This document shows, piece by piece, positions 8,618-60,097 of a DNA stretch of 64,000 nucleotides (the stretch's first letter is position 1; every line of letters starts with the position of its first letter). The stretch spans positions 270 to 64,269 of the forward strand of contig PFRS01000007.1 of NCBI GenBank assembly GCA_002788675.1, given 5' to 3'. Made by a program: the position numbers and the translations under genes. The stretch is from Candidatus Pacebacteria bacterium CG_4_9_14_0_2_um_filter_40_15. Lineage in GTDB: Bacteria > Patescibacteriota > Microgenomatia > UBA1400 > PJMF01. The notes under the pieces are model-generated. The model was not told the DNA's origin, searched no databases, and saw nothing but the letters and a program-made list of their open reading frames with translations.

Positions 8618-9688
8618 ATGAAAACATGGCAAAAGCTAGCTGTCTCAAATGCAGCAATCAGACCTTTCAAGATACGAGAAACGGTACTGGATACTATTAG
8701 ATCCTTTTTTAAAAAAGAGGGTTTTTTAGAAGTTGAAACTCCCCTTCTCTGTGAAAACCCAGGGACTGAGCCATATCTTGAGGTTTTTAAAACGACACTC
8801 AAAGCACAAAACTTTTCAGATAGACCTGGTTTTTTAGTTACGAGTCCTGAACTTTTTATGAAAAAATTGTTGGCTGCTGGAGTTGGTAGCTGTTTTCAAA
8901 TTTGTAAAAGTTTTAGAAACGAAGAAGGTGTGAGTGCCTTTCATAATCATGAATTCACTATTTTAGAGTGGTACCATGTTGATGCAGATTATACTGACGT
9001 GATGACTGATTGTGAGAATTTGTTGCTACGAATTCTTAGAACAGTTTCAGGGGATGAGACTGCCATTATTTTAACATATCAAGGCAAGGAATATGATCTT
9101 TCCCCAGGATGGGAGAGAATTTCTGTTGCTGAAGCATTCAAAAAATATGCAAACGTGGACATTGATGAACTTCTCACTGAAGAGTCATTACTCAAAATTG
9201 GACAGGAAAAAGGATATTCAGTTACAGAAACAACTGACTGGGAGGAAATCTATAACCAAATTTTTCTTAATGAAATTGAACCAAATTTAGGTAAAGCAAA
9301 GCCAACTATTATTTATGAGTATCCTGCTTCTCAAGCAGCACTTTCAAAACGCAAAGAATCTGATCCACGATTTGCTGAGCGCTTTGAGTTCTATATAGGA
9401 GGATTAGAGTTGGGAAATGCATTTTCAGAATTAACCGACTCTGATGAACAACGAGCTAGAATGCAGGAAGACCTTGAGATGCGAAAAAAAATGGATAAGT
9501 ATTCATACACCTTGGATGAAGACTTTTTTACAGCACTCAAAATGGGACTACCACGTACCGGTGGTATTGCTGTTGGTGTTGATAGATTAGTGATGCTTTT
9601 TGCAGATGTTGCATCTGTGCGTGAAACGCTTTTCTTTCCTATTAATGAAGTCTTTGATTTTTCTGTGACTGAATCTGATAAAAAATAA
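8618..9688 (+). CDS. epmA: EF-P lysyl-lysine ligase EpmA (PoxA), a truncated class II LysRS paralog
   Basis: Class II aaRS motifs (FRNEE, GLELGNAFSEL, GGIAVGVDRLVMLF) without an anticodon-binding domain; lies directly upstream of efp. Confidence 0.8.
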   Translation: MKTWQKLAVSNAAIRPFKIRETVLDTIRSFFKKEGFLEVETPLLCENPGTEPYLEVFKTTLKAQNFSDRPGFLVTSPELFMKKLLAAGVGSCFQICKSFRNEEGVSAFHNHEFTILEWYHVDADYTDVMTDCENLLLRILRTVSGDETAIILTYQGKEYDLSPGWERISVAEAFKKYANVDIDELLTEESLLKIGQEKGYSVTETTDWEEIYNQIFLNEIEPNLGKAKPTIIYEYPASQAALSKRKESDPRFAERFEFYIGGLELGNAFSELTDSDEQRARMQEDLEMRKKMDKYSYTLDEDFFTALKMGLPRTGGIAVGVDRLVMLFADVASVRETLFFPINEVFDFSVTESDKK

Positions 9689-9711: not shown

Positions 9712-10278
9712 ATGTCTATCGTCAAAGCCGGAAACATTCGAAAAGGGATGTACCTACTCCATAAAGATCAACCTTACTATGTCACTCATACTGATTTTAT
9801 GAGTCCAGGAAAAGGCTCAGCATTCATGCGAGTAAAGTATCGTAATGTGATTACTGGTAATACTGAAGAATTTACCTATAAGTCAAGTGAATCTGTTGAA
9901 GAAGCTGAAATTCAAAGTACTCAAATGCAGTTCTTGTATGTTGATGGCAGTGACTCAGTTTTTATGGATAACAATACGTATGAGCAAGTTGAAATTCCAA
10001 CTGTTATGCTTGAAGATAAGCAGGGACTTTTAACACCTGATATTCAAGTATATGTTATGTTTTACAATGGAAAAGCACTCGGTGTTTCACTCCCTCCAAA
10101 AGTTCGCCTTAAAGTTACCTATGCTGAAGAAGCTACAGCTGGAAATACACAAGGTCAAGCTCGAAAAATGGTTACACTTGAAACTGGACTAGAAATTTCA
10201 GCTCCAATCTTTGTAAAAGAAGGTGACACACTTGTTATCGACACCGATACAGTAAGTTACGTTTCTCGAGCTAACTAA
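9712..10278 (+). CDS. efp: elongation factor P
   Basis: Typical EF-P N-terminus MSIVKAGNIRKGM. The conserved loop SPGKGSAFMRVK carries the modifiable Lys. Three OB-domain length. Confidence 0.9.
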   Translation: MSIVKAGNIRKGMYLLHKDQPYYVTHTDFMSPGKGSAFMRVKYRNVITGNTEEFTYKSSESVEEAEIQSTQMQFLYVDGSDSVFMDNNTYEQVEIPTVMLEDKQGLLTPDIQVYVMFYNGKALGVSLPPKVRLKVTYAEEATAGNTQGQARKMVTLETGLEISAPIFVKEGDTLVIDTDTVSYVSRAN

Positions 10279-20205: not shown

Positions 20206-20586
20206 TTACTCGTTGATGAGTGTGGCGGCTTCTTCTTCGATTTTTTCGATGCTGGCTGCCTGGTCCCAGCCACCGGTAAGGTGTACGTGTATGTGATGTA
20301 CTTGTTGTACTTTTTTACCTACGTTGAGAAACACTTTATAGTTTTCAGAAATGTTTAATTTTTTTGCAACTTTTCGAACGGTGGTAAGCAGCTGAGCATG
20401 AAATGCCTCGTCTTCCAAATCGACTTGTTCGAGTGTTTCATACTGCTTTTTAGGAATAATCAGTACATGAACAGGAGCCTTAGGGCTAATATCATTAATG
20501 GCAATGAAGTCTTCATCTTCATACTGAATTGTGGCAGGAATTTCACGATTAATTATTTTGGTAAAAATGGAAATGGAATCTGACAT
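20206..20586 (-). CDS. HIT family protein (HinT-like nucleotide phosphoramidase)
   Basis: Canonical histidine triad HHIHVHL at the C-terminus; 126 aa. Confidence 0.85.
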   Translation of the reverse strand: MSDSISIFTKIINREIPATIQYEDEDFIAINDISPKAPVHVLIIPKKQYETLEQVDLEDEAFHAQLLTTVRKVAKKLNISENYKVFLNVGKKVQQVHHIHVHLTGGWDQAASIEKIEEEAATLINE

Positions 20587-24842: not shown

Positions 24843-27779
24843 TTAGCCCTTATGTTCAGGCGCATCGATAAGTCCGCACTTTTTATACTTGAGTCCACTG
24901 CCACAAGGACAAGGATCATTGCGTTTTATTTTTACCTTTGAGACTCCAGGTTTAGGTCTACTCGTAGCTTTTGCAGAACCCAGAGCTGAGGCTAAGTCAC
25001 CTAAAGATCCTTGTTTTGACTGAGGAGCTGTGCTTTTTTGTGATTGGTCTACATTTGAAACAGCCTGAGCAAGATTCGATGTAATGGCTTGCTTTTGAGC
25101 AACAGCTTGTTTCTGTGGAGATGACTCAACTTTTTGTTGCACTCCTCGCAATTGTACTCTAAAGAGTCTGTTTGCAATTGTGCTTTCGATTGACTGTACT
25201 AAGTCCGCAAACATTACAAAGCCTTCTTTTTTATACTCAGAAAGTACCGTCTTTTTATCACCGCGCAGCCAAATTCCTTCGCGAAGCGCATCCATGGCAT
25301 CAAGATGATCCATCCACTTTTCATCAATTGTTGAAAGTGTTACCAGTCTTTCCAGAATAGAAAGCTGTTCAGCTCCGAGAGCTTTTTCCCTGGAATCGTA
25401 TGCATCTGTTGAGATCTTTAGAAGCGTATCTTCAATATTGTTAGACGTAGTTAAAGATTTTGCTAGTTGTTGTTGTGAAGCATGGTCAAAAGGAATGAGT
25501 TTAGAAAACTCGTTTACTAACTCGTGATATTCTTCATCAACTCCTTCTGCTGGAGCATGCATTGCAGCAATACTTTTGACTTCATCCTCAATATATCCAA
25601 CTATTTGGTCATGGAGGGATTCCTCAGTCTCAGATTCAGTAGAGGCTTGTTTAAGTAGACGACGACGTCGTTCGTAAATGATTTCGCGCTGTTTGTTCAT
25701 GACGTCATCAAACTCAACTAATCGCTTACGTTGGTCAAAGAAGAATCCTTCAACTTTTACTTGAGCAGATTCGATTGATTTACTGACCATGCCATGTTCA
25801 ATGGGTTGGTTTTCTTCGATTTTGAGCATGTCCATGACTTTAGCAATTTGTTCACCTCCAAAAATGCGCATAATGTCATCTTCTAGAGCAACATAAAATT
25901 GTGAGGCACCTGGATCACCCTGACGACCTGAACGACCTCTCAGCTGATTATCAATACGACGGGATTCATGTCGTTCGGTACCAAGAACGTACAAACCACC
26001 GAGATCTTTTACTTCTTGATGCTCTTTTTTCCATGTATCGAGATCTTTGACGTATTCAGAAAGTTTGTAGTTATTTGGGTTAACTGATGGAGGCACTTGC
26101 ACTCCATATTTGTCTTGAATTTCTTTTCGTTCTTTTTGAGTTGGAATGTCTTTAGAGCGAGTTTTTTTTCGATACTCTTTTAATTCTGGAGCCGTGCCAC
26201 CTAGTACAATGTCAACACCACGACCAGCAATGTTTGTAGCAACGGTTATAGCACCTTTTTTACCTGCGTCAGAAATAATGAATGCTTCTTTTTCGTGATT
26301 TTTAGCATTAAGAACCTGATGTGGAACATTTTTTCGCTTTAGGAAGTTTGAAATTATTTGGTTGTGTTCAATGGATTTGGTACCAATCAAAATTGGTTGG
26401 CCAGTTGCATGAATTCGGGCAACCTCATTACTAATTGCTGAATACTTAGCAGCAGTGGTTTTATAAATGATGTCACTTTTATCGTTGCGAACAACAGGTT
26501 TATTTGTTGGGACCACCAGGACTTCAGCAGCATAAATCTTCATGAATTCTTCAGACTCAGTTTGTGCAGTACCAGTCATACCACTCAGTTTTTCGTAGAG
26601 ACGAAAATAATTTTGAATTGAAATAGTTGCTAAGGTACGTGATTCACTCTGAATATTGACACCTTCTTTAGCTTCAATTGCTTGATGGAGACCATCTGAG
26701 TAACGGCGACCATACATTAAACGACCTGTATGTTCATCAACAATAACAACTTCTCCTTCACGGACAATGTAGTCTTTGTCCCGCTGAAAAATAGTTTTTG
26801 CCTTAAGAGCGGACTCCAGCTGATGAATGGTATCAAAACTTTCTTCATACAGATTTGAAACACCAAGTTTAGCTTCAATTCGTTTAACACCCAAATCTGT
26901 TAAGGTTACAGAACGGGCTTTTTCATCAATATTGTAGTCAACATCTCTGCTCAAAATGGTAACCATTTTTGCATATTCAAAATATTGTTTAGTAGGAGTT
27001 GAGTCTGGTGCTGAGATAATCAGAGGAGTTCTGGCTTCATCAATCAAAATAGAGTCAGCTTCGTCCACAATGGTGTAGTGGTGCGCGTTGTCGAAACGTT
27101 GGACCATTTGGGCTTCTTGTTGCACCATGTTGTCTCGAAGATAGTCGAAACCAAACTCATTATTTGTACCATACGTAATGTCTGCGGCATATGCTTCACG
27201 GCGACTAATATCTTGGAAGTGCTCTAGACGTTCATCACCACGTTCTTCACTATCGATTTCAGGATTATAGAGCCGAGAGTGATCATGCACGATAACAGCT
27301 GATGAGAGGCCTAAGAAGGTATAAACTGGTCCCATCCAACCAATTCCAAGTTCAGCCAAGTAGTCATTTACTGTAATGAGGTGGGCGCCTTTGCCTAGAA
27401 GCGCATTAAGATACAAAGGAGCGGTAACGGTTAACGTTTTACCTTCACCTGTACGCTGTTCAGTGATCATGCCTTTGTGCAGAGCAATACCAGCAATGAG
27501 CTGAACGTCGTAGTGGCGCATTCCAAGTACACGTCGTGAAGTCTCACGTACCGTTGCAAACGCTTCTGGAAGGAGTGCATCAAGAATATCAGCATCGGAT
27601 GTCCCCCTTGAGGTTTCTTCAGCGATTCTCTTTTTGAATTCTTGTGTTTTTTTTGCAAGTTGAGCATCAGTTAATTTAAGAAACTCTGGCTCGAGTGCAT
27701 TAATTGCATCGACAATGCCTTGAAAAGAATTAAGATTCTTTTTGTTATCGTCGAACATGTTGGAAAGGAATTTAAGCAT
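24843..27779 (-). CDS. secA: preprotein translocase ATPase SecA (with C-terminal zinc finger CPCGSG...KKCG)
   Basis: DEAD motor motifs, preprotein cross-linking domain and C-terminal Zn finger all recognisable. Confidence 0.95.
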   Translation of the reverse strand: MLKFLSNMFDDNKKNLNSFQGIVDAINALEPEFLKLTDAQLAKKTQEFKKRIAEETSRGTSDADILDALLPEAFATVRETSRRVLGMRHYDVQLIAGIALHKGMITEQRTGEGKTLTVTAPLYLNALLGKGAHLITVNDYLAELGIGWMGPVYTFLGLSSAVIVHDHSRLYNPEIDSEERGDERLEHFQDISRREAYAADITYGTNNEFGFDYLRDNMVQQEAQMVQRFDNAHHYTIVDEADSILIDEARTPLIISAPDSTPTKQYFEYAKMVTILSRDVDYNIDEKARSVTLTDLGVKRIEAKLGVSNLYEESFDTIHQLESALKAKTIFQRDKDYIVREGEVVIVDEHTGRLMYGRRYSDGLHQAIEAKEGVNIQSESRTLATISIQNYFRLYEKLSGMTGTAQTESEEFMKIYAAEVLVVPTNKPVVRNDKSDIIYKTTAAKYSAISNEVARIHATGQPILIGTKSIEHNQIISNFLKRKNVPHQVLNAKNHEKEAFIISDAGKKGAITVATNIAGRGVDIVLGGTAPELKEYRKKTRSKDIPTQKERKEIQDKYGVQVPPSVNPNNYKLSEYVKDLDTWKKEHQEVKDLGGLYVLGTERHESRRIDNQLRGRSGRQGDPGASQFYVALEDDIMRIFGGEQIAKVMDMLKIEENQPIEHGMVSKSIESAQVKVEGFFFDQRKRLVEFDDVMNKQREIIYERRRRLLKQASTESETEESLHDQIVGYIEDEVKSIAAMHAPAEGVDEEYHELVNEFSKLIPFDHASQQQLAKSLTTSNNIEDTLLKISTDAYDSREKALGAEQLSILERLVTLSTIDEKWMDHLDAMDALREGIWLRGDKKTVLSEYKKEGFVMFADLVQSIESTIANRLFRVQLRGVQQKVESSPQKQAVAQKQAITSNLAQAVSNVDQSQKSTAPQSKQGSLGDLASALGSAKATSRPKPGVSKVKIKRNDPCPCGSGLKYKKCGLIDAPEHKG

Positions 27780-27947: not shown

Positions 27948-29228
27948 TTATTTTTTGAGCGTAATTATTTCAGTACCAACAAAATCTTGTAATACTTCAG
28001 GCACAATAATACTTCCATCTGCCTGCTGATAGTTTTCGATAACAGCAGCGAGTAAGCGAGGTGTTGCTGCCATTGTATTATTAAGTGTGAAGACATGTTT
28101 TGTAGTACCGTCTTTAGCCTGATACTTTATGCCCAGTCTTCTAGACTGAAAGTCATTAAAGTAACTGGCTGAATGTGTTTCTCGATATTTATTTTGGCCT
28201 GGGAACCAAGTTTCAATGTCATACTTTTTGCGCTGTCCTGCACCCATATCGCCTGTGCACATTAAGAGTACTTGGTAAGGTAAACCGAGGTCGTGCAAGA
28301 GTTGTTCTGCATAACCAGTCATTTTTTCGTGCCACTTCTGTGTTTCATCTTCATCAGCAATAGTGTAGACGACTTGTTCCACTTTATTAAATTGATGGAC
28401 CCGGATTATCCCTTGGGTGTCTTTCCCATGGGTGCCCACTTCTCTTCTAAAGCATGGTGAAATGCCGACCATTTTGACAGGTAAATCTGCTTCACTCAGT
28501 GTTTCACCCATGTGATATGCAGTGAGTGCGACCTCTGCAGTTCCTGCTAAAATTTGACCATCTTGGGTTTTGTAGTGATCTTCTTTTCCCCAGGGAAAAT
28601 ATCCAGTTCCTTCCATGGCTTCTTTGTTTACCAAAATTGGTGCAGACATGGCTGTGAAGCCTTCATTGCGTAAGAGTTTTAGAGAATAGTTGAGAATGGC
28701 TTGTTCAAGCAAGAGCCCTTCATTTTTTAAGAAATAAGATCTAAATCCACCAATGCGGACAGCTCTGACTGTGTCGACTAAGTCAAGTGCTTCCATGAGT
28801 TCATGGTGTTGTTTTGGCTCAAAATCAAGTTTTGGAAGTTCTCCAACAGTTCTAACAACTACATTACCTTCTTCATCTTTTCCAATGGGAACTTCATCAG
28901 CAGGCACATTTGGCACACTGTACATAAGTGTGGTAAATGCTTCTTCTGCAAGTTTAAGTTCTGGTTCGATGCCTTGGAGTTCTGTTTTGATTTCTTTGCC
29001 GTTGGCGATAAGTTCTGCAGAAGGTTTGCCGTTTGCTTGAACTTCTTTCTTTACGGCGTCAGCATTCTGATTGGCTGTTTGACGAAGGTTATCGACTTCG
29101 TATTGTAGTTTACGGCGTTTTTCGTCGACAGCTAGAAGTTCGTCAATGATAGAACTTTCAAGTTGCTTATTTTTACAGGCATTTTTTACTACTTCTGGGT
29201 TATCGCGAATGAACTGAATGTCCAACAT
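27948..29228 (-). CDS. serS: seryl-tRNA synthetase
   Basis: N-terminal coiled-coil tRNA-binding arm plus class II catalytic core. Confidence 0.9.
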   Translation of the reverse strand: MLDIQFIRDNPEVVKNACKNKQLESSIIDELLAVDEKRRKLQYEVDNLRQTANQNADAVKKEVQANGKPSAELIANGKEIKTELQGIEPELKLAEEAFTTLMYSVPNVPADEVPIGKDEEGNVVVRTVGELPKLDFEPKQHHELMEALDLVDTVRAVRIGGFRSYFLKNEGLLLEQAILNYSLKLLRNEGFTAMSAPILVNKEAMEGTGYFPWGKEDHYKTQDGQILAGTAEVALTAYHMGETLSEADLPVKMVGISPCFRREVGTHGKDTQGIIRVHQFNKVEQVVYTIADEDETQKWHEKMTGYAEQLLHDLGLPYQVLLMCTGDMGAGQRKKYDIETWFPGQNKYRETHSASYFNDFQSRRLGIKYQAKDGTTKHVFTLNNTMAATPRLLAAVIENYQQADGSIIVPEVLQDFVGTEIITLKK

Positions 29229-29527: not shown

Positions 29528-30079
29528 CTAAACTATGTGTACACTTCTTTTGCCGTTAGGATTTCTGTGTCGGGGATCATCAAATAGTAATTTTCGGGCA
29601 GCGTCTAATGCAACTTCTTGTTCGATTGTTCGATTTAATCCTGTAGATTGGTTTTCTTGTGCACTAACTTCAAAACTATTTGTAGCCACTTCTTCGCCTG
29701 CGGCTTGATTATCTTTTCGTTGTTTTTCAGCCGCTTCTTTTTTTTCTTGTTCTATCCGGTCTTCTTCATCTTGGATAGCTCGCCATTCAGCAAGAGCGGT
29801 ATTGGCATCTGGGTCAAGTACTTCACCTAAGTCGTTTTCAATTCGTGCTTCTTCATTGAGGTCTCTTGCGTACTCTGCTTCACCGGTAAAAGCATCTCGC
29901 ATTGCTTCTTGAAGAATAAATGCTTGAGTTCTGCTTCTATTCTCAGCAGTTCTTTGTGTTGCTTTTCTTTTTTCCCGATGAACTCGTTCACTTTCACGTT
30001 GAGGTGCTGATTTCTCGCGTGGTTTTGCTTTTTGAAGTAAATCAGGTCGCTTAAAAAAATGTCTCTCTTCTAATGGCAT
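29528..30079 (-). CDS. hypothetical highly charged protein (183 aa)
   Basis: ORF; K/R/E-rich, low complexity. Confidence 0.4.
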   Translation of the reverse strand: MPLEERHFFKRPDLLQKAKPREKSAPQRESERVHREKRKATQRTAENRSRTQAFILQEAMRDAFTGEAEYARDLNEEARIENDLGEVLDPDANTALAEWRAIQDEEDRIEQEKKEAAEKQRKDNQAAGEEVATNSFEVSAQENQSTGLNRTIEQEVALDAARKLLFDDPRHRNPNGKRSVHIV

Positions 30080-30141: not shown

Positions 30142-32244
30142 TTAGTCGTTTTTTGAAAAGACAGAAATCAAAAACTCAAAGTGCTCATCAGCAGTTTTAC
30201 CAATAAGTTGCAAACCCTCTTCAATATCTTCTCTACTTACATTGGCAGCAAACGCTTTAGTTTTAAGTTTTTTCTTGATTGATTTTGATTTCATACCCTC
30301 AAGACCAGTTGGGCGAAGTAGTGAAACGGCATTAATGAAACCAGAAATTTCGTCACAGGCAAAGAGGTAGCGGTCCAATGTTGTGATTGGATCACGTCCA
30401 GTTCTAGATGGAGCATGTGCCGCAATAGCATCAAGCATGGCTTGTGGGTACGCTGTTAAGATTTCATTGATGGCTTTATTTGGATGTTCGTCGGGGTACA
30501 TTTCCCAGTCTAGATCGTGGAGCAAACCAGTTTGGTACCAGAGTTCTTCATCCTCACCAAGTTCTTTTGCGTAAGCAGTCATAGCTTGAGCGACCATGCG
30601 TGAGTGGTTGCGTAGTGCTTCATCTGAAATATACTTTTCCAAAAGTGCTGTTGCAGCTTCTCTAGAGGGCATTTCTACAGAATCTGCTTTTTTCTCTGTT
30701 GAAGCATTTTTACCTGTGATATGCAGTGGAACAAGTGGGCGTAGCGTTGGAAAGGCAATCACCTCTTTAATACTCCAAGTGTTAGTAAGGAACATGACTA
30801 AACGGTCAATTCCCATTCCAATTCCACCAAGTGGTGGCATACCATGTTCCATAGCTTCAAGGAAGTCTTCATCAAGTGGATGAGCCTCGGTGTCACCATG
30901 AAGCATATTTGCTTGTTCATTTTCCCAGATGTTTCGTTGATCGACTGCGTCGACAATCTCACTCCAACCATCGGCAAGCTCTTTCCCTCCTATATAGGCT
31001 TCAAAGCGTTCTGCAAATTCTGGTTGGGTGCGATGTTGTTTTGCTAATGGAGAAATGTCACGTGGGTAGTCGACAATCCAAATTGGTGCGATTAAATGAG
31101 GAGTGACTAGTTCATCAAAGAGCTCAAATAATGCTTTACCTCTGGTGAACTCGCTTTTTAGTTCAATTCTGTGGGTTTTCATGAGTGCTTTCACTTCTTC
31201 GTCTGAAAGAGAGTCAAAGTCGATATTTGCGTGTTGTTTAAGTGCTTCATCCATTCGTACTCGAGGCCAGTCACCAGCAATATCAATGATTTTTTCACCA
31301 ACGGTAATCTCATGGTTACCGTAGAGTTTAAAGGTGAGGTGTTTAACCAGAGCTTCTGCTACATTCATCATGCGAGTGTAGTCTGCATAGGTCTCGTACC
31401 ATTCGATCATAGTGAACTCAGGTTGATGGGTTTGATCAATACCCTCATTGCGGAAGTTGCGGGCAATCTCAAAGACTCTATCGTAACCACCTACAATTAG
31501 CCGTTTTAAGTAGAGTTCTGGAGCGATGCGTAGGTAGAAATCACTATCAAGTGCATCCATGTGAGTGGTAAATGGAGTTGCATTTGTGCCGCCATATAAA
31601 GGTTGTAAGATTGGCGTTTCAACTTCAATAAAATCATGTTGATCTTGAAGAAACCGACGGATCTCTTTTTCAATTAACCAGCGAGCATCAAGAATTCTTT
31701 TTGTGTCTGGATTAATGAGCATGTCGACGTATCGTTTTCTAAAACGAACTTCTTTATTATCTGCTGCATTAAAGGCTGTTGGAATTGGTCGAAGTGCTTT
31801 AGAAAGCATCTGAAACTCAGTTGCTAAGATGGTTAGTTCTCCAGTTTTTGTGGTCATTACGGTACCAGACACTCCTAGATAATCACCTCGGTCGACTAAT
31901 GTTTTTAGCCACTCGAATGCTTTGGAATCAACTTCAGCTTCTCGTACCATTACTTGGATATTGGTTGTAGAGTCTTGTAGATCAAGAAACACAACTTTTC
32001 CATGTGCTCTGATGGACATGATGCGACCAGCAGTTTGAACTGATTGATCCATCATTTCTCGAACTTGAGCAATAGTAAACTTCTTATCAAAGAAATGAGG
32101 ATGCACAGTAATACCTTGTGCTTCTAATTGAGCTCTTTTATCTTTTTTTGCTTGAATTGTTTCGTCCATTCGCGACATGCCGGCGGTCCTTTTTGTGCTT
32201 TGTACTGCTTTATTTTGATTAATTTGTGCGTCTTGATTATACAT
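30142..32244 (-). CDS. lysS: lysyl-tRNA synthetase (class II) fused to a ~190-aa C-terminal HD-domain-like extension
   Basis: LysRS OB-fold plus the catalytic motifs FRNEGIDQTHQPEFTMIEWY and GGIGMGIDRLVMFL. The C-terminal tail contains H...LLHDLDW...H, typical of HD phosphohydrolases. Confidence 0.85.
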   Translation of the reverse strand: MYNQDAQINQNKAVQSTKRTAGMSRMDETIQAKKDKRAQLEAQGITVHPHFFDKKFTIAQVREMMDQSVQTAGRIMSIRAHGKVVFLDLQDSTTNIQVMVREAEVDSKAFEWLKTLVDRGDYLGVSGTVMTTKTGELTILATEFQMLSKALRPIPTAFNAADNKEVRFRKRYVDMLINPDTKRILDARWLIEKEIRRFLQDQHDFIEVETPILQPLYGGTNATPFTTHMDALDSDFYLRIAPELYLKRLIVGGYDRVFEIARNFRNEGIDQTHQPEFTMIEWYETYADYTRMMNVAEALVKHLTFKLYGNHEITVGEKIIDIAGDWPRVRMDEALKQHANIDFDSLSDEEVKALMKTHRIELKSEFTRGKALFELFDELVTPHLIAPIWIVDYPRDISPLAKQHRTQPEFAERFEAYIGGKELADGWSEIVDAVDQRNIWENEQANMLHGDTEAHPLDEDFLEAMEHGMPPLGGIGMGIDRLVMFLTNTWSIKEVIAFPTLRPLVPLHITGKNASTEKKADSVEMPSREAATALLEKYISDEALRNHSRMVAQAMTAYAKELGEDEELWYQTGLLHDLDWEMYPDEHPNKAINEILTAYPQAMLDAIAAHAPSRTGRDPITTLDRYLFACDEISGFINAVSLLRPTGLEGMKSKSIKKKLKTKAFAANVSREDIEEGLQLIGKTADEHFEFLISVFSKND

Positions 32245-32250
32245 TATTTG

Positions 32251-33336
32251 CTATCTTTCCTCTTGGCTAATTTTTGTTGAGCTATCGGCGAGTTTGAGAA
32301 TAAGCTCTTGCATACGTTCGAGTGCATATACACTAGTTTCTTCTCTGGTTGTATGTGCATGTTTGCTTCCATCCCCAAGGTTATATACATTCAGATTTGG
32401 CGACTGGTTAAAAATGTTTGCGTCTGAAACACCAAACGATTTTTTGTGAGTGGTGGTTGTATTCAGTGCTGAATCAATAATTTTTGTCATGGAATCTATT
32501 TCATCTTCTGTATGACTGTACCCAGGATTCTCAATCACGATTTCTGATATGATCTCACATGCATAAGGAGTATCTAGTAATGCTTGCAATGTACTCAGTC
32601 CGTTCTGAAAGGTGGCTAGATCAAAACTTCTTACTTCACCATGCATTATTATTTTTCCCATCACTGTATTTCGAGCATTTCCCCCAGATATCTTACCAAT
32701 ATTTATGAGCAAATCGTTTGATCGCAATTTTTTTATTTCAGTAGCTAAAGAAAGAAATGTAGGAAGTGCTGCGGTAGCTTTTTCTGGATAGCCAGCATGA
32801 GCTGATTTTCCTTGTATTTCAATGTCAAATCGTGCGTAGTAGGGAGATGCCGACATGATTGTTTCGATTGGTCCTGTGCCATCAAAAATGATTCCTGTTT
32901 TTGCTCTAAGAGCTGATGTATCATATCCCTTTGCGCCCTTGCACTCTTCTTCCTCAGAAACAGTAAAGACAATATCAAGAGGCCGCCATTTAATCTTTGA
33001 GTTTGTTGTTATGTGTTGAAGCGCTACAAGTATGGCAGCAACGGCACCTTTATCGTCGGCACCAAGAATAGTGTTGCCAGTACTGCGAATAATGCCATCT
33101 TTGAGTTCTGGAATAATTCCTCTACCTGGTTCTACAGTATCTAAATGGGCGCATAAGAAAAGTGCCTCACCTGTTCCATCTGTTTGGATTGTTACATTGC
33201 CATGTGAGTCAACATTTGCTTCGAGATCACAGTTCTGTTTTGAAAAACGGACTATTTCTTGAATCATCTCTTCCTCTTCGCCGGAGACACTATCAATTTG
33301 GACAAGATCCATAAAAAGTTCAGTTACTGATTGCAT
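32251..33336 (-). CDS. M20-family metallopeptidase (peptidase T/tripeptidase-like)
   Basis: Metal-binding motifs (CAHLDTV, GADDKG, SEEEE) in M20 order; start is 6 bp downstream of lysS (operon). Confidence 0.7.
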   Translation of the reverse strand: MQSVTELFMDLVQIDSVSGEEEEMIQEIVRFSKQNCDLEANVDSHGNVTIQTDGTGEALFLCAHLDTVEPGRGIIPELKDGIIRSTGNTILGADDKGAVAAILVALQHITTNSKIKWRPLDIVFTVSEEEECKGAKGYDTSALRAKTGIIFDGTGPIETIMSASPYYARFDIEIQGKSAHAGYPEKATAALPTFLSLATEIKKLRSNDLLINIGKISGGNARNTVMGKIIMHGEVRSFDLATFQNGLSTLQALLDTPYACEIISEIVIENPGYSHTEDEIDSMTKIIDSALNTTTTHKKSFGVSDANIFNQSPNLNVYNLGDGSKHAHTTREETSVYALERMQELILKLADSSTKISQEER

Positions 33337-33403
33337 TAGTTCCTTTAAAACTAAAAACCCCGCTTGTATGCGGGTTTTTTACATTTTTTGTTAGTATTAG
33401 TAC

Positions 33404-33883
33404 TTATTTGATTTCTACTATTGTGTATTCAATTTCCCCCGCTGGAGCTTGAAAGACTGCTTTATCGCCCTTCTTCTTACCAACTAGAGCTTCCCCTAAT
33501 GGAGAGCCAACTGAAATTTTTCCTAAAACTGGATCCGCCTCAAACTCACCAACAACCTTAAGTTCTTTTTTCTCTTTTGAACCTTTTTTTGAAACTATTA
33601 CAGTTGTGCCAATACCGATATTGCTTTTACTGCGTGTATTTTGAACAACTACAGAACGAGAAATGATAAGTTCAATTTCTTCGATACGAGTTTCAATAAA
33701 TTCTTGCTCCTCTTTTGCGCTATGGTATTCGGCGTTCTCAGAAAGATCTCCATATTCGCGAGCTTTTGCAACGCGTTTGATAACGGCAACAAGTTTTTGC
33801 TCTTTTAGTTGGGTAAGTTCAGTCTGGAGTTCTTCTAGACCTTCTTTTGTAAGTTCGATTTTGTTTGTGTCGTTGTTTGACAT
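33404..33883 (-). CDS. greA: transcription elongation factor GreA
   Basis: N-terminal coiled-coil with acidic tip YGDLSENAEY plus C-terminal FKBP-like domain. The ORF track extends to 33997, but the start is more likely MSNNDTNK at 33883. Confidence 0.8.
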   Translation of the reverse strand: MSNNDTNKIELTKEGLEELQTELTQLKEQKLVAVIKRVAKAREYGDLSENAEYHSAKEEQEFIETRIEEIELIISRSVVVQNTRSKSNIGIGTTVIVSKKGSKEKKELKVVGEFEADPVLGKISVGSPLGEALVGKKKGDKAVFQAPAGEIEYTIVEIK

Positions 33884-33962
33884 AATGTTCCTAGTATACC
33901 GTGTCTTTTGTATGTGACAAGCAGATAATGTAATTTTTGTGTGAAAATAAGTGAAAATGGAC

Positions 33963-34373
33963 TTATAGACCGCGCTTTTGAGCAACTTTGATTTCAAGCA
34001 TTGCTCTCTTCAAAGACGCTTCAGCCATGATAAGTTCTCGACGATTTTCAGAAATTTTCATGGTCTCTTTAGCGGCAGAAATCGCTTCTTCAGCCTGAGC
34101 GACACTTATGTCACGTGCAAGAGTTGCACTGTCCACCATTACTATTACTTCATTGTTAGGATTAACCGTTAAGAACCCGTCAGATACCACAATTGAGTGT
34201 TCTCTCTCTCCCTCAAAGTATCTTAGCTCACCAGTCTTCAACTGAGTAAACAATGGGATATGACGAGCTAAGATAGTAATTTCGCCTTGAGTTGTGATCG
34301 CAGAAACTGACTCGACTTCAGTTTCGAGTAACTTTCTTTCTTGTGATACGACGGTTAACGTTAATTTTTGCAT
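33963..34373 (-). CDS. atpC: ATP synthase F1 epsilon subunit
   Basis: Beta-sandwich N-terminus typical of epsilon; last gene of the atp operon. Confidence 0.85.
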   Translation of the reverse strand: MQKLTLTVVSQERKLLETEVESVSAITTQGEITILARHIPLFTQLKTGELRYFEGEREHSIVVSDGFLTVNPNNEVIVMVDSATLARDISVAQAEEAISAAKETMKISENRRELIMAEASLKRAMLEIKVAQKRGL

Positions 34374-42253: not shown

Positions 42254-42458
42254 GCTGTTGAAAATCCTTACACATAGTATCTATAATTTTCGTGTTAATT
42301 TCAAGTGTATTTATAGTATTCATTAAGATACATAGTTTATAGTGTTATATATGTGCTTTAAAATTCGCCTCTGTGCTCAAGAGACGCTGCTGTCTTGGTA
42401 CTTTTCTATTCTTTGATTTTGAGATAAAATACTCCAGTTCTTATTAATGAAGAAAAGT

Positions 42459-42532
42459 GGGTCCGTAGCTCAGTCGGTTAGAGCGACAGCCTTTTAAGCT
42501 GTGCGTCCCGGGTTCGAGTCCCGGCGGACCCA
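42459..42532 (+). tRNA. tRNA-Lys (anticodon TTT)
   Basis: Acceptor GGGTCCG/CGGACCC. Anticodon stem ACAGC/GCTGT with loop CTTTTAA. T arm CCCGG-GTTCGAGT-CCCGG. Discriminator A. Terminator hairpin ccacctcaggtgg + ttttttt at 42541-42567. Confidence 0.85.
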
Positions 42533-42546
42533 CCCAGCATTCCACC

Positions 42547-58314: not shown

Positions 58315-58824
58315 GTGTTAAAAATGTCTGAAAAAATTGAGAGATCAGTTGCACGAGTCGTATTGCGAGTGCCTGTAGTACATCCAAAAAATAATCAAAA
58401 AGTTGGAAATGAAGTTGCGCTAACTATGCGACCAGGCTGGTCTAACTTGGGTAGATATGCTTATACACTTCCTGGTGGAAAAATTGAAACTGCTGATTTT
58501 GCAGCTGGAATTGCTGAAAATATAACTCCTGATCAGATGCAGAGTGCTGGAATTCGGGCAGCTGTTCGAGAATTGTCAGAGGAATTGGGTATAACTCTTT
58601 CACACCAATTACTACAATTTGTGCTCTGTGCAACCAATGAATCTAATTGGACAACCTATGTATATGCGGCTGATTTAGAGAGCAAGCCTCAGCTGCTTGT
58701 ATTGCCAGAGAGCGCTGGAACACTCTGGTTGCCTGAATCAGAGTTGCTGAGTGGAACAATCCCATTGTTTGCTGATCATGGTGCATTTGTTGTGGCTGCA
58801 TTGCAGTTACTTTCAAATACCTAA
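58315..58824 (+). CDS. Nudix hydrolase
   Basis: Nudix box GGKIETADF...AAVRELSEELGI; the start may be the internal ATG at 58324 (MSEKIER). Confidence 0.7.
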   Translation: MLKMSEKIERSVARVVLRVPVVHPKNNQKVGNEVALTMRPGWSNLGRYAYTLPGGKIETADFAAGIAENITPDQMQSAGIRAAVRELSEELGITLSHQLLQFVLCATNESNWTTYVYAADLESKPQLLVLPESAGTLWLPESELLSGTIPLFADHGAFVVAALQLLSNT

Positions 58825-59617: not shown

Positions 59618-60097
59618 GTGCAAATACCTAAAAAAACCATTCCTTTTACTAAAGAAAAATATGAACAGATGCAACAAAAAGTTGCAGATCTTTTGGCTCT
59701 TCGAGTTGAAGTCATGGAAAGATTGGTCACTGCCCGAGAGATGGGGGACCTTTCAGAAAATGGTGCATATAAATATGCTAAGTTTGAGTTAGGAAATATT
59801 GGTAGAGAACTTAAAAAATATCAAGGTTTGCTTGATAGAGGGTATACTCAAGAGCGGTCCGCTGCTTCACGTCAGGTGATTGATTTTGGAAGTGTGGTTA
59901 CCGTACAGCACTCTGATAACCCAGAGAAAAATAAAACATTCACTATTGTAAGCAAACATGAATCAAACCCTGTTGCCGGGTTATTGGCCTTTTCTAGTCC
60001 TATTGGTAGAGCTGTGATGAAGAAAAAAATTGGTGATAGTGTTGATGTTTTAACTCCTCGTGGTACAGTCTCATACCTTATAACTGAGATTAATTGA
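59618..60097 (+). CDS. GreA/GreB-family transcript cleavage factor (second paralog)
   Basis: Coiled-coil with acidic tip GDLSENGAY plus C-terminal FKBP-like domain. Confidence 0.75.
   Translation: MQIPKKTIPFTKEKYEQMQQKVADLLALRVEVMERLVTAREMGDLSENGAYKYAKFELGNIGRELKKYQGLLDRGYTQERSAASRQVIDFGSVVTVQHSDNPEKNKTFTIVSKHESNPVAGLLAFSSPIGRAVMKKKIGDSVDVLTPRGTVSYLITEIN

What the first reader, a model, noticed from the sequence alone, without database searches (positions are those of the whole stretch)
30142..30714. Lysyl-tRNA synthetase carries a C-terminal HD-domain-like phosphohydrolase fusion
LysRS is normally about 500 aa. This ORF is 700 aa, and the extra ~190 C-terminal residues contain H...LLHDLDW...H, typical of HD-superfamily hydrolases such as YqeK-type Ap4A hydrolases and the HD domain of CCA enzymes. 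LysRS is the main source of Ap4A and releases lysyl-AMP. A fused HD hydrolase could degrade these by-products in cis. A stand-alone HinT (20206-20586), which hydrolyses lysyl-adenylate in other systems, a Nudix protein and a HIT-like variant are also encoded in this window.
Basis: partly seen in the sequence, partly recalled or inferred. Interest (0 to 1): 0.6.

Follow-up and report, generated by a model that had tools for sequence, protein, structure and literature searches.

The report
Lysyl-tRNA synthetase fused to HD hydrolase
This gene from a candidate-phyla-radiation (Patescibacteria) bacterium really does join a complete lysyl-tRNA synthetase to an uncharacterised metal-dependent HD phosphohydrolase, and because relatives keep the same hydrolase fused to or next to the lysine enzyme whichever of its two unrelated types they carry, the pair probably work together, most likely to destroy nucleotide by-products such as Ap4A.

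Summary
ORF 30142-32244 (-) encodes 700 aa: a complete class II LysRS (aa 28-503), a roughly 21-aa disordered linker, and a 176-aa HD domain (Pfam HD above its threshold; AlphaFold pLDDT 94).

It is not a frameshift or assembly artefact. More than 120 protein clusters from Patescibacteria metagenomes carry the same fusion, with linkers of variable length.

The tail belongs to an uncharacterised, strongly conserved HD family with a binuclear-type ligand set (H547, H576-D577, H587, H610, D631). It has no close solved structure. The nearest folds are YqeK Ap4A hydrolases and the GlyRS-beta HD domain, at TM below 0.5.

The new point is that the family is tied to LysRS:
- It is fused C-terminally to class II LysRS, sometimes with a B3_4, DUF2000 or NUDIX domain in between.
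- It is fused N-terminally in one lineage.
- It is a separate gene 2-11 nt downstream of class I LysRS, in the same atp-greA-lysS-HD-serS-secA locus.
- The LysRS class has been swapped in situ next to near-identical HD genes.

The most likely function is hydrolysis of LysRS-derived adenylylated by-products (Ap4A, related Np4N, possibly lysyl-AMP), by analogy with NadD-YqeK. This is plausible but unproven. I found no literature on it.

The parts
30142..32244 (-). Whole ORF: 700-aa class II LysRS::HD fusion protein (includes the stop codon)
30736..32163 (-). Complete class II lysyl-tRNA synthetase module, aa 28-503 (OB anticodon-binding domain aa 69-147 = nt 31804-32040; catalytic core aa 163-501 = nt 30742-31758)
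   Evidence: NCBIfam PRK00484 596 bits and TIGR00499 526 bits, both above their cut-offs. Pfam PF01336 and PF00152. Coordinates.
30673..30735 (-). Linker, aa 504-524 (VPLHITGKNASTEKKADSVEM). In homologous fusions the linker is low-complexity and adds roughly 20-70 residues.
   Evidence: Alignment of 61 fusions. Full-length AlphaFold model has pLDDT below 50 for aa 497-521 and pTM 0.44.
30145..30672 (-). HD-family phosphohydrolase domain, aa 525-700 (Pfam HD core aa 546-634 = nt 30343-30609). Equivalent to the stand-alone ~176-aa proteins of relatives.
   Evidence: AlphaFold model pLDDT 94.2, pTM 0.89, all-helical. Foldseek matches to HD proteins.
30352..30606 (-). Span holding the predicted binuclear metal ligands: H547 (30604-30606), H576-D577 (30514-30519), H587 (30484-30486), H610 (30415-30417), D631 (30352-30354)
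   Evidence: Invariant in 47 close homologues. Invariant or at least 90% conserved in 150 representatives at 50% identity or less. Conserved across all architectures. Same H/HD/H/H/D ligand pattern as S. pyogenes YqeK H29/H58-D59/H91/H117/D135 (PMC11857287). Ligand assignment is inferred.
32251..33336 (-). M20 (PepT-like) peptidase gene ending 6 nt before the lysS start, probably co-transcribed. Lineage-specific insertion between greA and lysS.
   Evidence: Terminator-like hairpin at 33359-33374 between greA and this gene.
33404..33997 (-). greA, the conserved upstream neighbour of the LysRS/HD locus
   Evidence: Same synteny in L001-L004 and L085.
29528..30079 (-). 183-aa charged ORF with no family match, occupying the variable slot between the HD domain and serS
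   Evidence: Other unrelated genes occupy this slot in relatives.
27948..29228 (-). serS, the conserved downstream neighbour (followed by secA at 24843-27779)
   Evidence: SerS follows the HD in most Patescibacteria loci

Best explanation
The gene encodes one polypeptide with two enzymes. The first is a complete, presumably housekeeping, class II lysyl-tRNA synthetase. The second is a catalytically competent HD-superfamily metallo-phosphohydrolase, joined by a short flexible tether. The HD domain belongs to an uncharacterised, very strongly conserved family that in Patescibacteria is genetically tied to LysRS. Shown: both modules are intact, the fusion is real and widespread, and the HD family is associated with LysRS of both classes. 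Inferred: the domain binds two metal ions through H547, H576/D577, H587, H610 and D631 and cleaves a phosphoanhydride. Inferred, and the most likely mechanism: tethering keeps the hydrolase next to the synthetase active site. There it destroys adenylate-derived side products that LysRS makes when lysyl-AMP reacts with ATP or other nucleotides. These are Ap4A, Ap3A and Np4N, and possibly released lysyl-AMP. It would be a local 'damage-control' or alarmone-limiting activity, analogous to the YqeK HD domain fused to the adenylyltransferase NadD.
For: Integrity and reality of the fusion:
- Both modules are intact and score above curated thresholds.
- The fusion recurs in more than 120 clusters with variable linkers and no conserved internal start.

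HD fold and active site:
- The HD model is confident (pLDDT 94).
- Its best solved matches are nucleotide-directed HD enzymes: YqeK-type Ap4A hydrolases 8jkp/8jja/3ccg/2ogi/2o08, PgpH and YpgQ.
- The six putative ligands are invariant or nearly so across 150 family representatives.
- The closest curated sequence matches are HD domains appended to nucleotidyl-transferases (DVU_1551 NTP transferase and NadD-YqeK).

Specific link to LysRS:
- 18 of 150 family representatives are fused to a class II LysRS core. Every other partner is a singleton.
- The fused LysRS cores are as little as 32-44% identical to this one.
- One lineage has the opposite order, HD-LysRS, seen on at least 9 contigs.
- About 23 of 80 species-representative loci have the HD gene 2-11 nt after a class I LysRS at the same locus.
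- HD genes 88-93% identical sit next to different LysRS classes. DNA homology breaks exactly at the LysRS core.

Nucleotide theme:
- A LysRS-NUDIX-HD variant has an intact Nudix box, and a MazG-HD variant exists.
- YqeK fused to NadD hydrolyses that enzyme's erroneous dinucleotide products and Ap4A (PMC9426524).
- aaRSs, with LysRS/LysU listed among the producers, make Ap4A, and HD (YqeK), Nudix and ApaH enzymes degrade it (PMC10148737).
Against: - No substrate was tested, and the fold similarity to YqeK is weak (Foldseek E about 0.02, TM 0.42-0.49).
- The YqeK lysine needed for Ap4A cleavage (K62 in HDxxK; PMC11857287) is an invariant Trp here.
- The same HD is linked to class I LysRS. From general knowledge (Ibba et al. 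1999, not checked here), class I LysRS needs tRNA to activate lysine and is not a documented Ap4A producer.
- The domains inserted between LysRS and HD are more often B3_4 (the PheRS editing-domain fold) than NUDIX. That points to tRNA-directed quality control.
- The family also occurs alone, far from lysS, in Balneolales and others.
- This window already encodes HIT and NUDIX proteins that could handle ApnA or lysyl-AMP.
- The full-length model gives no docked arrangement (pTM 0.44).
Confidence: 0.45

Rival explanations
1. The HD domain acts on tRNA(Lys) or Lys-tRNA rather than on free nucleotides. It could heal a 2',3'-cyclic-phosphate or 3'-phosphate end of damaged tRNA(Lys) so that it can be recharged. 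It could also work with the B3_4 or DUF2000 modules as part of a LysRS quality-control (editing) platform.
For: The link holds for both LysRS classes, whose only shared features are lysine, ATP and tRNA(Lys). The commonest inserted or neighbouring module is B3_4, the PheRS-beta editing-domain fold, found in K1-B3_4|HD and K2-B3_4-HD. About 45 of the 120 listed class I LysRS carry it. A DUF2000 domain occupies the same position in P0248. The E. coli GlyRS-beta HD domain, which approaches the tRNA acceptor arm, is among the top structural matches (PMC8464048). HD domains with 2',3'-phosphoesterase end-healing activity are known (CCA-adding enzymes, HD-Pnk; from my own knowledge, not checked here).
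Against: The other top fold matches are all small-nucleotide enzymes. The NUDIX and MazG partners point to nucleotides. Stand-alone members exist in Balneolales and Actinobacteria-like genomes with no tRNA-related neighbours. No RNA-binding domain is attached.
Confidence: 0.2
2. The HD enzyme is a general housekeeping nucleotide-pool hydrolase with no LysRS-specific role. Its fusion is a by-product of long-standing adjacency and co-expression in very compact genomes, and the stop codon between two neighbouring genes was simply lost.
For: The locus atp-greA-lysS-HD-serS-secA is conserved, and the genes are 2-11 nt apart when separate. The window's linker keeps a Met where stand-alone proteins start. 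The linker is disordered, and no interdomain packing is predicted. Half of the sampled family is unlinked to lysS. No class I fusion exists.
Against: The HD gene stays adjacent while the LysRS gene itself is replaced by the other class. An independent fusion in the reverse order exists. LysRS is the only recurrent fusion partner, 18 of 150 against singletons. Fusions span LysRS cores of only 32-44% identity.
Confidence: 0.2
3. The HD domain is a non-catalytic appended domain that helps bind tRNA or regulates LysRS allosterically, like the degenerate HD domain of bacterial GlyRS-beta.
For: GlyRS-beta is a precedent for an HD fold inside an aaRS, and it is a top Foldseek match.
Against: GlyRS-beta has lost the His-Asp dyad (Ser-Lys in E. 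coli; PMC8464048). Here H576-D577 and four further putative ligands are invariant across the family. The domain also exists as a free protein in many genomes.
Confidence: 0.05
4. The fusion is an artefact: a sequencing frameshift or a lost stop codon in this assembly joins two separate genes.
For: Most homologues of the tail are separate ~176-aa genes.
Against: There are 120 independent clusters from different studies with the same fused frame, 62-100% identical, with variable in-frame linkers. Among 80 species representatives, 12 carry the fusion. The separate genes follow class I LysRS, not class II.
Confidence: 0.01

Closest known systems
YqeK (COG1713) HD-domain Ap4A hydrolase, including the NadD-YqeK fusion of mycoplasmas
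   Same: Both are small (~180-190 aa) all-helical HD domains with an H / HD / H / H / D ligand pattern for two metals. YqeK structures are the best solved structural neighbours (8jkp, 8jja, 3ccg, 2ogi, 2o08). Both are fused or clustered with an adenylate-forming enzyme whose side products the hydrolase could remove (PMC9426524). The only curated sequence model with YqeK content that matches is NadD-YqeK PRK07152.
   Different: Not the same family: no YqeK model scored E<=1, TM is only 0.42-0.49, and a profile search of PDB sequences finds nothing. The HDxxK lysine is replaced by an invariant Trp (HDLDW). Ligand spacing differs. The partner is LysRS, not NadD. The taxonomic range is Patescibacteria/Balneolales rather than Firmicutes.
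HD domain of the bacterial GlyRS beta-subunit
   Same: It is an HD fold that forms part of an aminoacyl-tRNA synthetase, and it is a top-ranked Foldseek match (7eiv_C, 7yse_C).
   Different: The GlyRS-beta HD has lost the catalytic His-Asp dyad and acts in tRNA acceptor-arm binding and the transfer step (PMC8464048). The LysRS tail keeps every putative ligand and also exists as a free enzyme.
Rel/SpoT bifunctional (p)ppGpp synthetase-hydrolases
   Same: One polypeptide combines an enzyme that can make a nucleotide alarmone with an HD-domain hydrolase.
   Different: The resemblance is in concept only. There is only a weak fold match to the small alarmone hydrolase (6yvc, E 0.5). LysRS is not a dedicated alarmone synthetase. 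No reciprocal regulation has been shown.
Other LysRS fusions and paralogues (LysX = MprF-LysRS; EpmA/GenX)
   Same: They show that the class II LysRS core is reused in multidomain proteins. The window itself encodes EpmA next to efp.
   Different: Those proteins use lysyl-AMP or Lys-tRNA for a new transfer reaction. Here the appended module is a hydrolase, and the LysRS is the canonical complete enzyme.
Non-orthologous displacement of class I and class II LysRS
   Same: Closely related genomes carry either class, as is known across bacteria and archaea (from my own knowledge: Ibba et al. 1997/1999; Jester et al. 2003).
   Different: Here the swap is in situ and cassette-like, between conserved greA and HD flanks, within one group of Patescibacteria. 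An accessory hydrolase is retained throughout.

Membership tests
Class II lysyl-tRNA synthetase (lysS, TIGR00499 / PRK00484) | Full-length match above the curated equivalog/subfamily cut-off | tested here: met
   PRK00484 596.3 bits (cut-off 468) and TIGR00499 526.3 bits (cut-off 427.6), covering aa 28-503
Class II lysyl-tRNA synthetase (lysS, TIGR00499 / PRK00484) | N-terminal OB anticodon-binding domain plus class II D/K/N catalytic core | tested here: met
   PF01336 at aa 69-147 and PF00152 at aa 163-501, full profile length
Class II lysyl-tRNA synthetase (lysS, TIGR00499 / PRK00484) | Lysylation of tRNA(Lys) | not testable with these tools
   No other LysRS is present in the window (no class I hit). 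The second class II core at 8618-9688 is EpmA.
HD superfamily (PF01966) | Pfam HD match above the gathering score | tested here: met
   31.3 bits in the whole protein and 34.1 bits for the tail, against a gathering score of 22. 137 of 150 family representatives also match.
HD superfamily (PF01966) | Conserved H ... HD ... D metal-binding motif | tested here: met
   H547, H576-D577 and D631 are invariant or nearly invariant, with additional H587 and H610
HD superfamily (PF01966) | All-alpha HD fold | tested here: met
   The model has pLDDT 94 and ten helices. Foldseek probability is 0.94-1.00 for the 20 best matches, all HD proteins, although TM is only 0.41-0.49.
HDIG subfamily (TIGR00277) | Score above the NCBIfam domain cut-off | tested here: inconclusive
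   The tail alone scores 29.4 bits and the whole protein 26.6 bits, against a cut-off of 27.6. The motif reads HDLDW rather than HDIG(K).
YqeK / COG1713 Ap4A hydrolase | Sequence membership (match to a YqeK model or to solved YqeK sequences) | tested here: not met
   No YqeK equivalog model scored E<=1. There is only a 54-residue match to NadD-YqeK PRK07152 (E 1e-4; 21 bits against a cut-off of 315). phmmer and a profile hmmsearch against PDB sequences find no YqeK.
YqeK / COG1713 Ap4A hydrolase | Binuclear ligand set H, HD, H, H, D | tested here: met
   The pattern is present and invariant. Equivalence to YqeK H29/H58/D59/H91/H117/D135 is inferred from order and spacing, not from a superposition.
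YqeK / COG1713 Ap4A hydrolase | Catalytic lysine three residues after the HD dyad (K62 in S. pyogenes YqeK) | tested here: not met
   The position is an invariant Trp (W580, in HDLDW)
YqeK / COG1713 Ap4A hydrolase | Fusion to, or clustering with, nadD | tested here: not met
   The neighbours are greA, lysS, serS and secA. No nadD occurs in any locus examined.
YqeK / COG1713 Ap4A hydrolase | Symmetric hydrolysis of Ap4A to 2 ADP | not testable with these tools
   Requires an enzyme assay
GlyRS-beta-type (degenerate) HD domain | Loss of the His-Asp dyad, embedded between the B-lobe and the anticodon-binding domain of GlyRS-beta | tested here: not met
   The dyad is retained and invariant. The architecture is different. 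The GlyRS-beta features are taken from PMC8464048.

The most novel reading that the evidence does not exclude
LysRS::HD could be a self-contained synthase-hydrolase pair for dinucleoside polyphosphates, an Ap4A counterpart of Rel/SpoT. In that reading, translation status (lysine, tRNA(Lys) charging) sets the balance between making and destroying Ap4A/Np4N, or Np4A RNA caps. More broadly, LysRS in candidate-phyla-radiation bacteria would be a modular quality-control hub that recruits interchangeable clean-up domains (HD, NUDIX, B3_4, DUF2000). The hub would be kept even when the synthetase itself is swapped between class I and class II.
Probability: 0.15. Interest if true: 0.85.

Novelty: new variant of a known kind. 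Interest (0 to 1): 0.6.

Why it matters
Aminoacyl-tRNA synthetases are the main cellular source of Ap4A, and LysRS is one of the producers named in the review read here. Whether Ap4A is a signal or a damage product is a long-standing question. A hydrolase that evolution has repeatedly welded to LysRS, in either order and with an extra NUDIX in one case, is a natural experiment on that question. The same hydrolase is kept beside LysRS even when the synthetase class is replaced. The system is directly testable by comparing net Ap4A output, fidelity and charging for wild-type and HD-dead fusion enzymes.

It would also assign a function to a large, very strongly conserved and so far unannotated HD family. 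That family comprises about 3,900 clusters at 50% identity and has no solved structure.

The related loci show clean in-situ class I/class II LysRS replacement. They also show LysRS enzymes carrying PheRS-type B3_4 domains. Neither is described in the literature I could search.

Tried and rejected
- **PDB sequence searches.** Sequence and profile searches of PDB with the tail returned only spurious hits (an SDR and a Gag protein), so there is no solved close relative.
- **Full-length model.** The AlphaFold model built to look for docking of the HD on the LysRS core had pTM 0.44 and a disordered linker. Part of the catalytic core (aa 209-277) was also low-confidence in the monomer model. It gave no information about domain arrangement.
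- **Stand-alone gene neighbourhoods.** I looked at Gracilimonas tropica, Solirubrobacteraceae-like contigs and others. They show outer-membrane, his/aro and miscellaneous genes, and nothing informative except a nearby weak MazG hit.
- **Literature.** Searches for LysRS with HD domain, class I LysRS with Patescibacteria, aaRS with HD and CPR, COG2316 and DUF2000 found no description of this fusion.
- **DUF2000.** I recalled that DUF2000 has a PTH2-like fold. A PDB sequence search with the P0248 segment found nothing, so this remains an unverified recollection.
- **Class I LysRS-HD fusion.** A search with a concatenated K1+HD query found none among the best 120 hits.
- **'HIT-like variant'.** A regex plus Pfam search found only the HinT-like gene. 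The other HxHxH in a sizeable ORF is in a transketolase subunit.
- **Frameshift or assembly artefact.** Rejected because the fusion recurs across studies.
Full report
**1. What is in the window**

The ORF at 30142-32244 on the minus strand is uninterrupted and encodes 700 aa.

- Pfam places an OB anticodon-binding domain at aa 69-147, a class II D/K/N catalytic core at aa 163-501 and an HD domain at aa 546-634. The HD match scores 31.3 bits in the whole protein and 34.1 bits for the tail alone, against a gathering score of 22.
- NCBIfam calls aa 28-503 a lysine--tRNA ligase above both curated cut-offs (PRK00484 596 bits, cut-off 468; TIGR00499 526 bits, cut-off 427.6).
- The isolated tail just passes the HDIG domain model (29.4 bits, cut-off 27.6). 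It has weak partial matches to the HD portions of two nucleotidyl-transferase fusions, the DVU_1551 NTP transferase and NadD-YqeK PRK07152.

The flagged interval, 30142-30714, is the last 190 codons plus the stop. The conserved domain is aa 525-700 (nt 30145-30672), preceded by a 21-residue linker.

**2. It is not an artefact**

- A search with the full protein returned 120 clusters. All carry the tail at 57-100% identity, at 602-929 aa and 62-100% overall identity. They come from JGI, ENA, NCBI and Logan assemblies of Patescibacteria (Woesebacteria / Microgenomates / 'Pacebacteria').
- In an alignment of 61 fusions, the LysRS C-terminus (IAFPTLRPL) and the HD N-terminus (LPxRxxA) are joined by a low-complexity linker that adds roughly 20-70 residues. 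There is no conserved internal start codon.
- Twelve of 80 GTDB species-representative loci carry the fusion in one open frame.
- A frameshift or lost stop in this one assembly is therefore excluded.

**3. What the tail is**

Homologues of the tail number 1141 in the word-indexed search. The best are stand-alone ~176-aa proteins, 63-81% identical and annotated only as 'HD/HDIG domain-containing protein'.

An exhaustive profile search finds 3865 clusters (at 50% identity) with E<=1e-3 and 177 with E<=1e-30.

Conservation is extreme:
- 43 columns are invariant among 47 close sequences.
- Across 150 representatives at 50% identity or less, H576, D577, H587 and D631 are invariant. H547, D579, H610, E632, K658, K661 and R671 are at least 90% conserved.

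This gives the H / HD / H / H / D pattern of binuclear HD hydrolases. In S. pyogenes YqeK the equivalent ligands are H29, H58-D59, H91, H117 and D135 (PMC11857287). The equivalence is inferred from order and spacing, not from a superposition. The YqeK lysine that follows the dyad (K62) is an invariant Trp here.

AlphaFold2 with the family alignment gives a confident all-helical model (pLDDT 94.2, pTM 0.89). Foldseek against PDB finds only HD proteins at the top:
- YqeK-type Ap4A hydrolases (SP1746 8jkp/8jja/8jk9, 3ccg, 2ogi, 2o08);
- the HD domain of E. coli GlyRS-beta (7eiv_C, 7yse_C);
- PgpH, YpgQ, 2pq7 and a dNTP triphosphohydrolase.

All are weak matches (E 0.02-0.4, TM 0.41-0.49, 10-20% identity). 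Sequence and profile searches of PDB find nothing. The tail is therefore a bona fide, probably two-metal, HD phosphohydrolase. It belongs to a family with no solved or characterised member. It is near the nucleotide-directed HDIG/YqeK branch but not inside it.

**4. The tie to LysRS**

Several independent lines show that the link to LysRS is specific.

*(a) Fusion partners.* In a Pfam census of the 150 representatives, 18 carry a class II LysRS core. Every other partner is a singleton: MazG, NUDIX, DUF2000, Barstar, DegV and an SDR.

*(b) Divergence of the fused cores.* Some are only 32-44% identical to this one (P0242, P0251, P0257, P0276, P0318, P0320, P0370; L005 at 37%, a certified lysS at 523 bits). 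The fusion is therefore either very old or recurrent.

*(c) A reverse-order fusion.* One cluster has the order HD-linker-OB-core (P0310, 715 aa; 8 members, one of them seen on 9 contigs of up to 85 kb). This is an independent event.

*(d) Inserted domains.* Between LysRS and HD, some proteins carry one of the following:
- a B3_4 domain (P0150, P0154, P0203; 917-929 aa);
- a DUF2000 domain (P0248);
- a NUDIX domain with an intact Nudix box (P0342, GGVDKGESLYDAFVREMREEAG).

*(e) Adjacency to class I LysRS.* The stand-alone genes of close relatives lie 2-11 nt downstream of a class I LysRS (PF01921; TIGR00467 310 bits, cut-off 147.55), which is often itself extended by B3_4. The locus is the same as in this window, atpAGDC-greA-[LysRS]-HD-(variable)-serS-secA. 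About 23 of the 80 representative loci are of this kind.

*(f) In-situ class swaps.* In a neighbour-joining tree, the HD domains next to class I and those fused to class II are interleaved. Specific pairs are very close:
- L020 (K1-B3_4|HD) against P0200/L085 (K2-HD): 92-93% identical in the HD, but only 73% in GreA.
- L019 against L042: 88%.

DNA alignments of L012 (K2-HD) against L011 and L004 (K1|HD) are collinear at about 73% on both flanks. They break exactly over the LysRS core and resume at the start of the HD. The LysRS gene has thus been replaced in situ by the other class while the HD stayed in place.

*(g) No class I fusion.* A concatenated K1+HD query found none among the best 120 hits. 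With class I, the link is by operon adjacency only.

*(h) Unlinked members.* About 45 of the 80 loci are not linked to lysS. They are mostly Balneolales, including the cultured Gracilimonas tropica, with a few Saccharibacteria and Dojkabacteria. They form the other main branch of the tree. Their neighbourhoods are uninformative.

**5. Mechanism**

*Shown.* The protein combines a complete LysRS and an intact HD active site on a flexible tether. The full-length model has pTM 0.44 and a linker with pLDDT below 50, so no fixed docking is predicted.

*Inferred.* The HD is a two-metal phosphohydrolase that works near LysRS.

*Best-supported substrate class.* These are the adenylate-derived by-products of LysRS: Ap4A, Ap3A, Np4N and perhaps released lysyl-AMP. 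The arguments are:
- the nearest solved folds are Ap4A/nucleotide hydrolases;
- the family is found fused to two other nucleotide pyrophosphohydrolase folds, NUDIX within a LysRS fusion and MazG;
- the nearest curated sequence models are HD domains appended to nucleotidyl-transferases;
- a YqeK HD domain fused to the adenylyltransferase NadD hydrolyses that enzyme's erroneous products and Ap4A (PMC9426524);
- aaRSs, with LysRS/LysU listed among the producers, make Ap4A, and HD, Nudix and ApaH enzymes degrade it (PMC10148737).

*Against this reading.*
- The catalytic lysine of YqeK is absent.
- The link extends to class I LysRS. From general knowledge, class I LysRS activates lysine only with tRNA bound and is not a known Ap4A source.
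- The commonest companion domain is B3_4, the fold of the PheRS editing domain, which points to the tRNA 3' end.
- This genome already has HIT and NUDIX proteins.

*Confidence.* I put the by-product-hydrolase reading at about 0.45. A tRNA(Lys)/aa-tRNA-directed role is about 0.2. Mere adjacency of a general housekeeping hydrolase is about 0.2. A non-catalytic GlyRS-beta-like role is about 0.05, and an artefact about 0.01. About 0.1 is left for roles I have not thought of.

**6. Comparison with what is known**

- The protein is a member of class II LysRS and of the HD superfamily. All features tested were met.
- It works most like YqeK but is not a member of that family. It fails on sequence membership, the catalytic lysine and nadD linkage.
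- It differs from the GlyRS-beta HD domain, which has lost the His-Asp dyad (PMC8464048).
- I found no paper describing a LysRS-HD fusion, the class-independent LysRS-HD linkage or B3_4-bearing LysRS. Source annotations for the fused and B3_4-bearing LysRS proteins read only 'lysine--tRNA ligase' (or 'hypothetical protein'); the stand-alone homologues are labelled 'HD domain-containing protein'.

**7. Verdict**

The fusion is already present in public data but is unannotated as such. It is a new variant of a known kind: an aaRS with an appended hydrolase, or an HD hydrolase paired with an adenylate-forming enzyme.

What raises its interest above an ordinary domain fusion is the evolutionary pattern. 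A very conserved hydrolase stays attached to 'the lysine-charging enzyme' through fusions in both orders, domain insertions and repeated class I/II replacement. Interest 0.6.

Noticed in passing
L011/L004 versus L012; L020 versus L085; L019 versus L042 (related loci): Class I and class II LysRS genes replace each other in situ, cassette-like, between conserved greA and HD/serS flanks in related Patescibacteria. DNA homology (~73-81%) stops and restarts exactly at the LysRS core, and the HD genes are up to 93% identical across the swap.
   Followed up: partly
L001 2602-4989; also L006, L009, L020, L023, L072; P0433, P0441 and about 45 of the 120 hits: Many Patescibacteria class I LysRS (~795 aa) carry a C-terminal B3_4 domain, the fold of the PheRS-beta editing domain. 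Class II versions K2-B3_4-HD also exist (P0150, P0154, P0203). To my knowledge LysRS has no post-transfer editing domain, so this may be an undescribed editing or tRNA-binding module.
   Followed up: partly
P0342 (935 aa), P0248 (519 aa, partial), P0310 (715 aa; L086 4001-6148), P0277 (310 aa): Rare architectures of the same HD family: LysRS-NUDIX-HD with an intact Nudix box, LysRS-DUF2000-HD, reverse-order HD-LysRS, and MazG-HD.
   Followed up: partly
window 8618-9688 (+) and 9712-10278 (+): EpmA/GenX (a LysRS paralogue without the OB domain; TIGR00462 352 bits, cut-off 286.9) lies immediately upstream of efp. This is the EF-P lysylation pair, so a second lysyl-adenylate-forming enzyme is encoded in this window.
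   Followed up: yes
window 32251-33336 (-): An M20 PepT-like peptidase gene is inserted between greA and lysS and ends 6 nt before the lysS start. It is absent from this position in the related loci examined. A terminator-like hairpin at 33359-33374 separates it from greA.
   Followed up: partly
window 29528-30079 (-): A 183-aa, highly charged ORF with no Pfam or NCBIfam match lies between the HD end and serS. Relatives have unrelated genes in this slot (a Bro-N protein; 358-aa and 134-aa unknowns).
   Followed up: partly
window 20206-20586 (-) and 58315-58824 (+): A HIT/HinT-like protein (PF01230, 78 bits) and a NUDIX protein (PF00293, 29 bits) are encoded elsewhere in the window. They are alternative candidates for lysyl-AMP or ApnA hydrolysis in this organism.
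   Followed up: yes
window 59618-60097 (+) versus 33404-33997 (-): There are two GreA/GreB-family genes in one 64-kb window of a small genome.
   Followed up: no
window 42458-42536 (+): A tRNA-Lys(UUU) gene lies about 10 kb from lysS. Five other tRNA genes are in the window (Pro, Leu, Gly, His, Arg).
   Followed up: no
L005-L084 record titles: Many of the Patescibacteria MAG contigs carrying this locus are labelled 'uncultured Pseudomonadales', 'Vitreimonas sp.' or 'Chitinophagales' in their records. Judging from gene content and synteny, these are probably taxonomic mislabels.
   Followed up: no
L020 versus L085: The HD protein is more conserved than the housekeeping factor GreA between the same two genomes (92% against 73% aa identity). 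This indicates unusually strong purifying selection on the hydrolase.
   Followed up: partly
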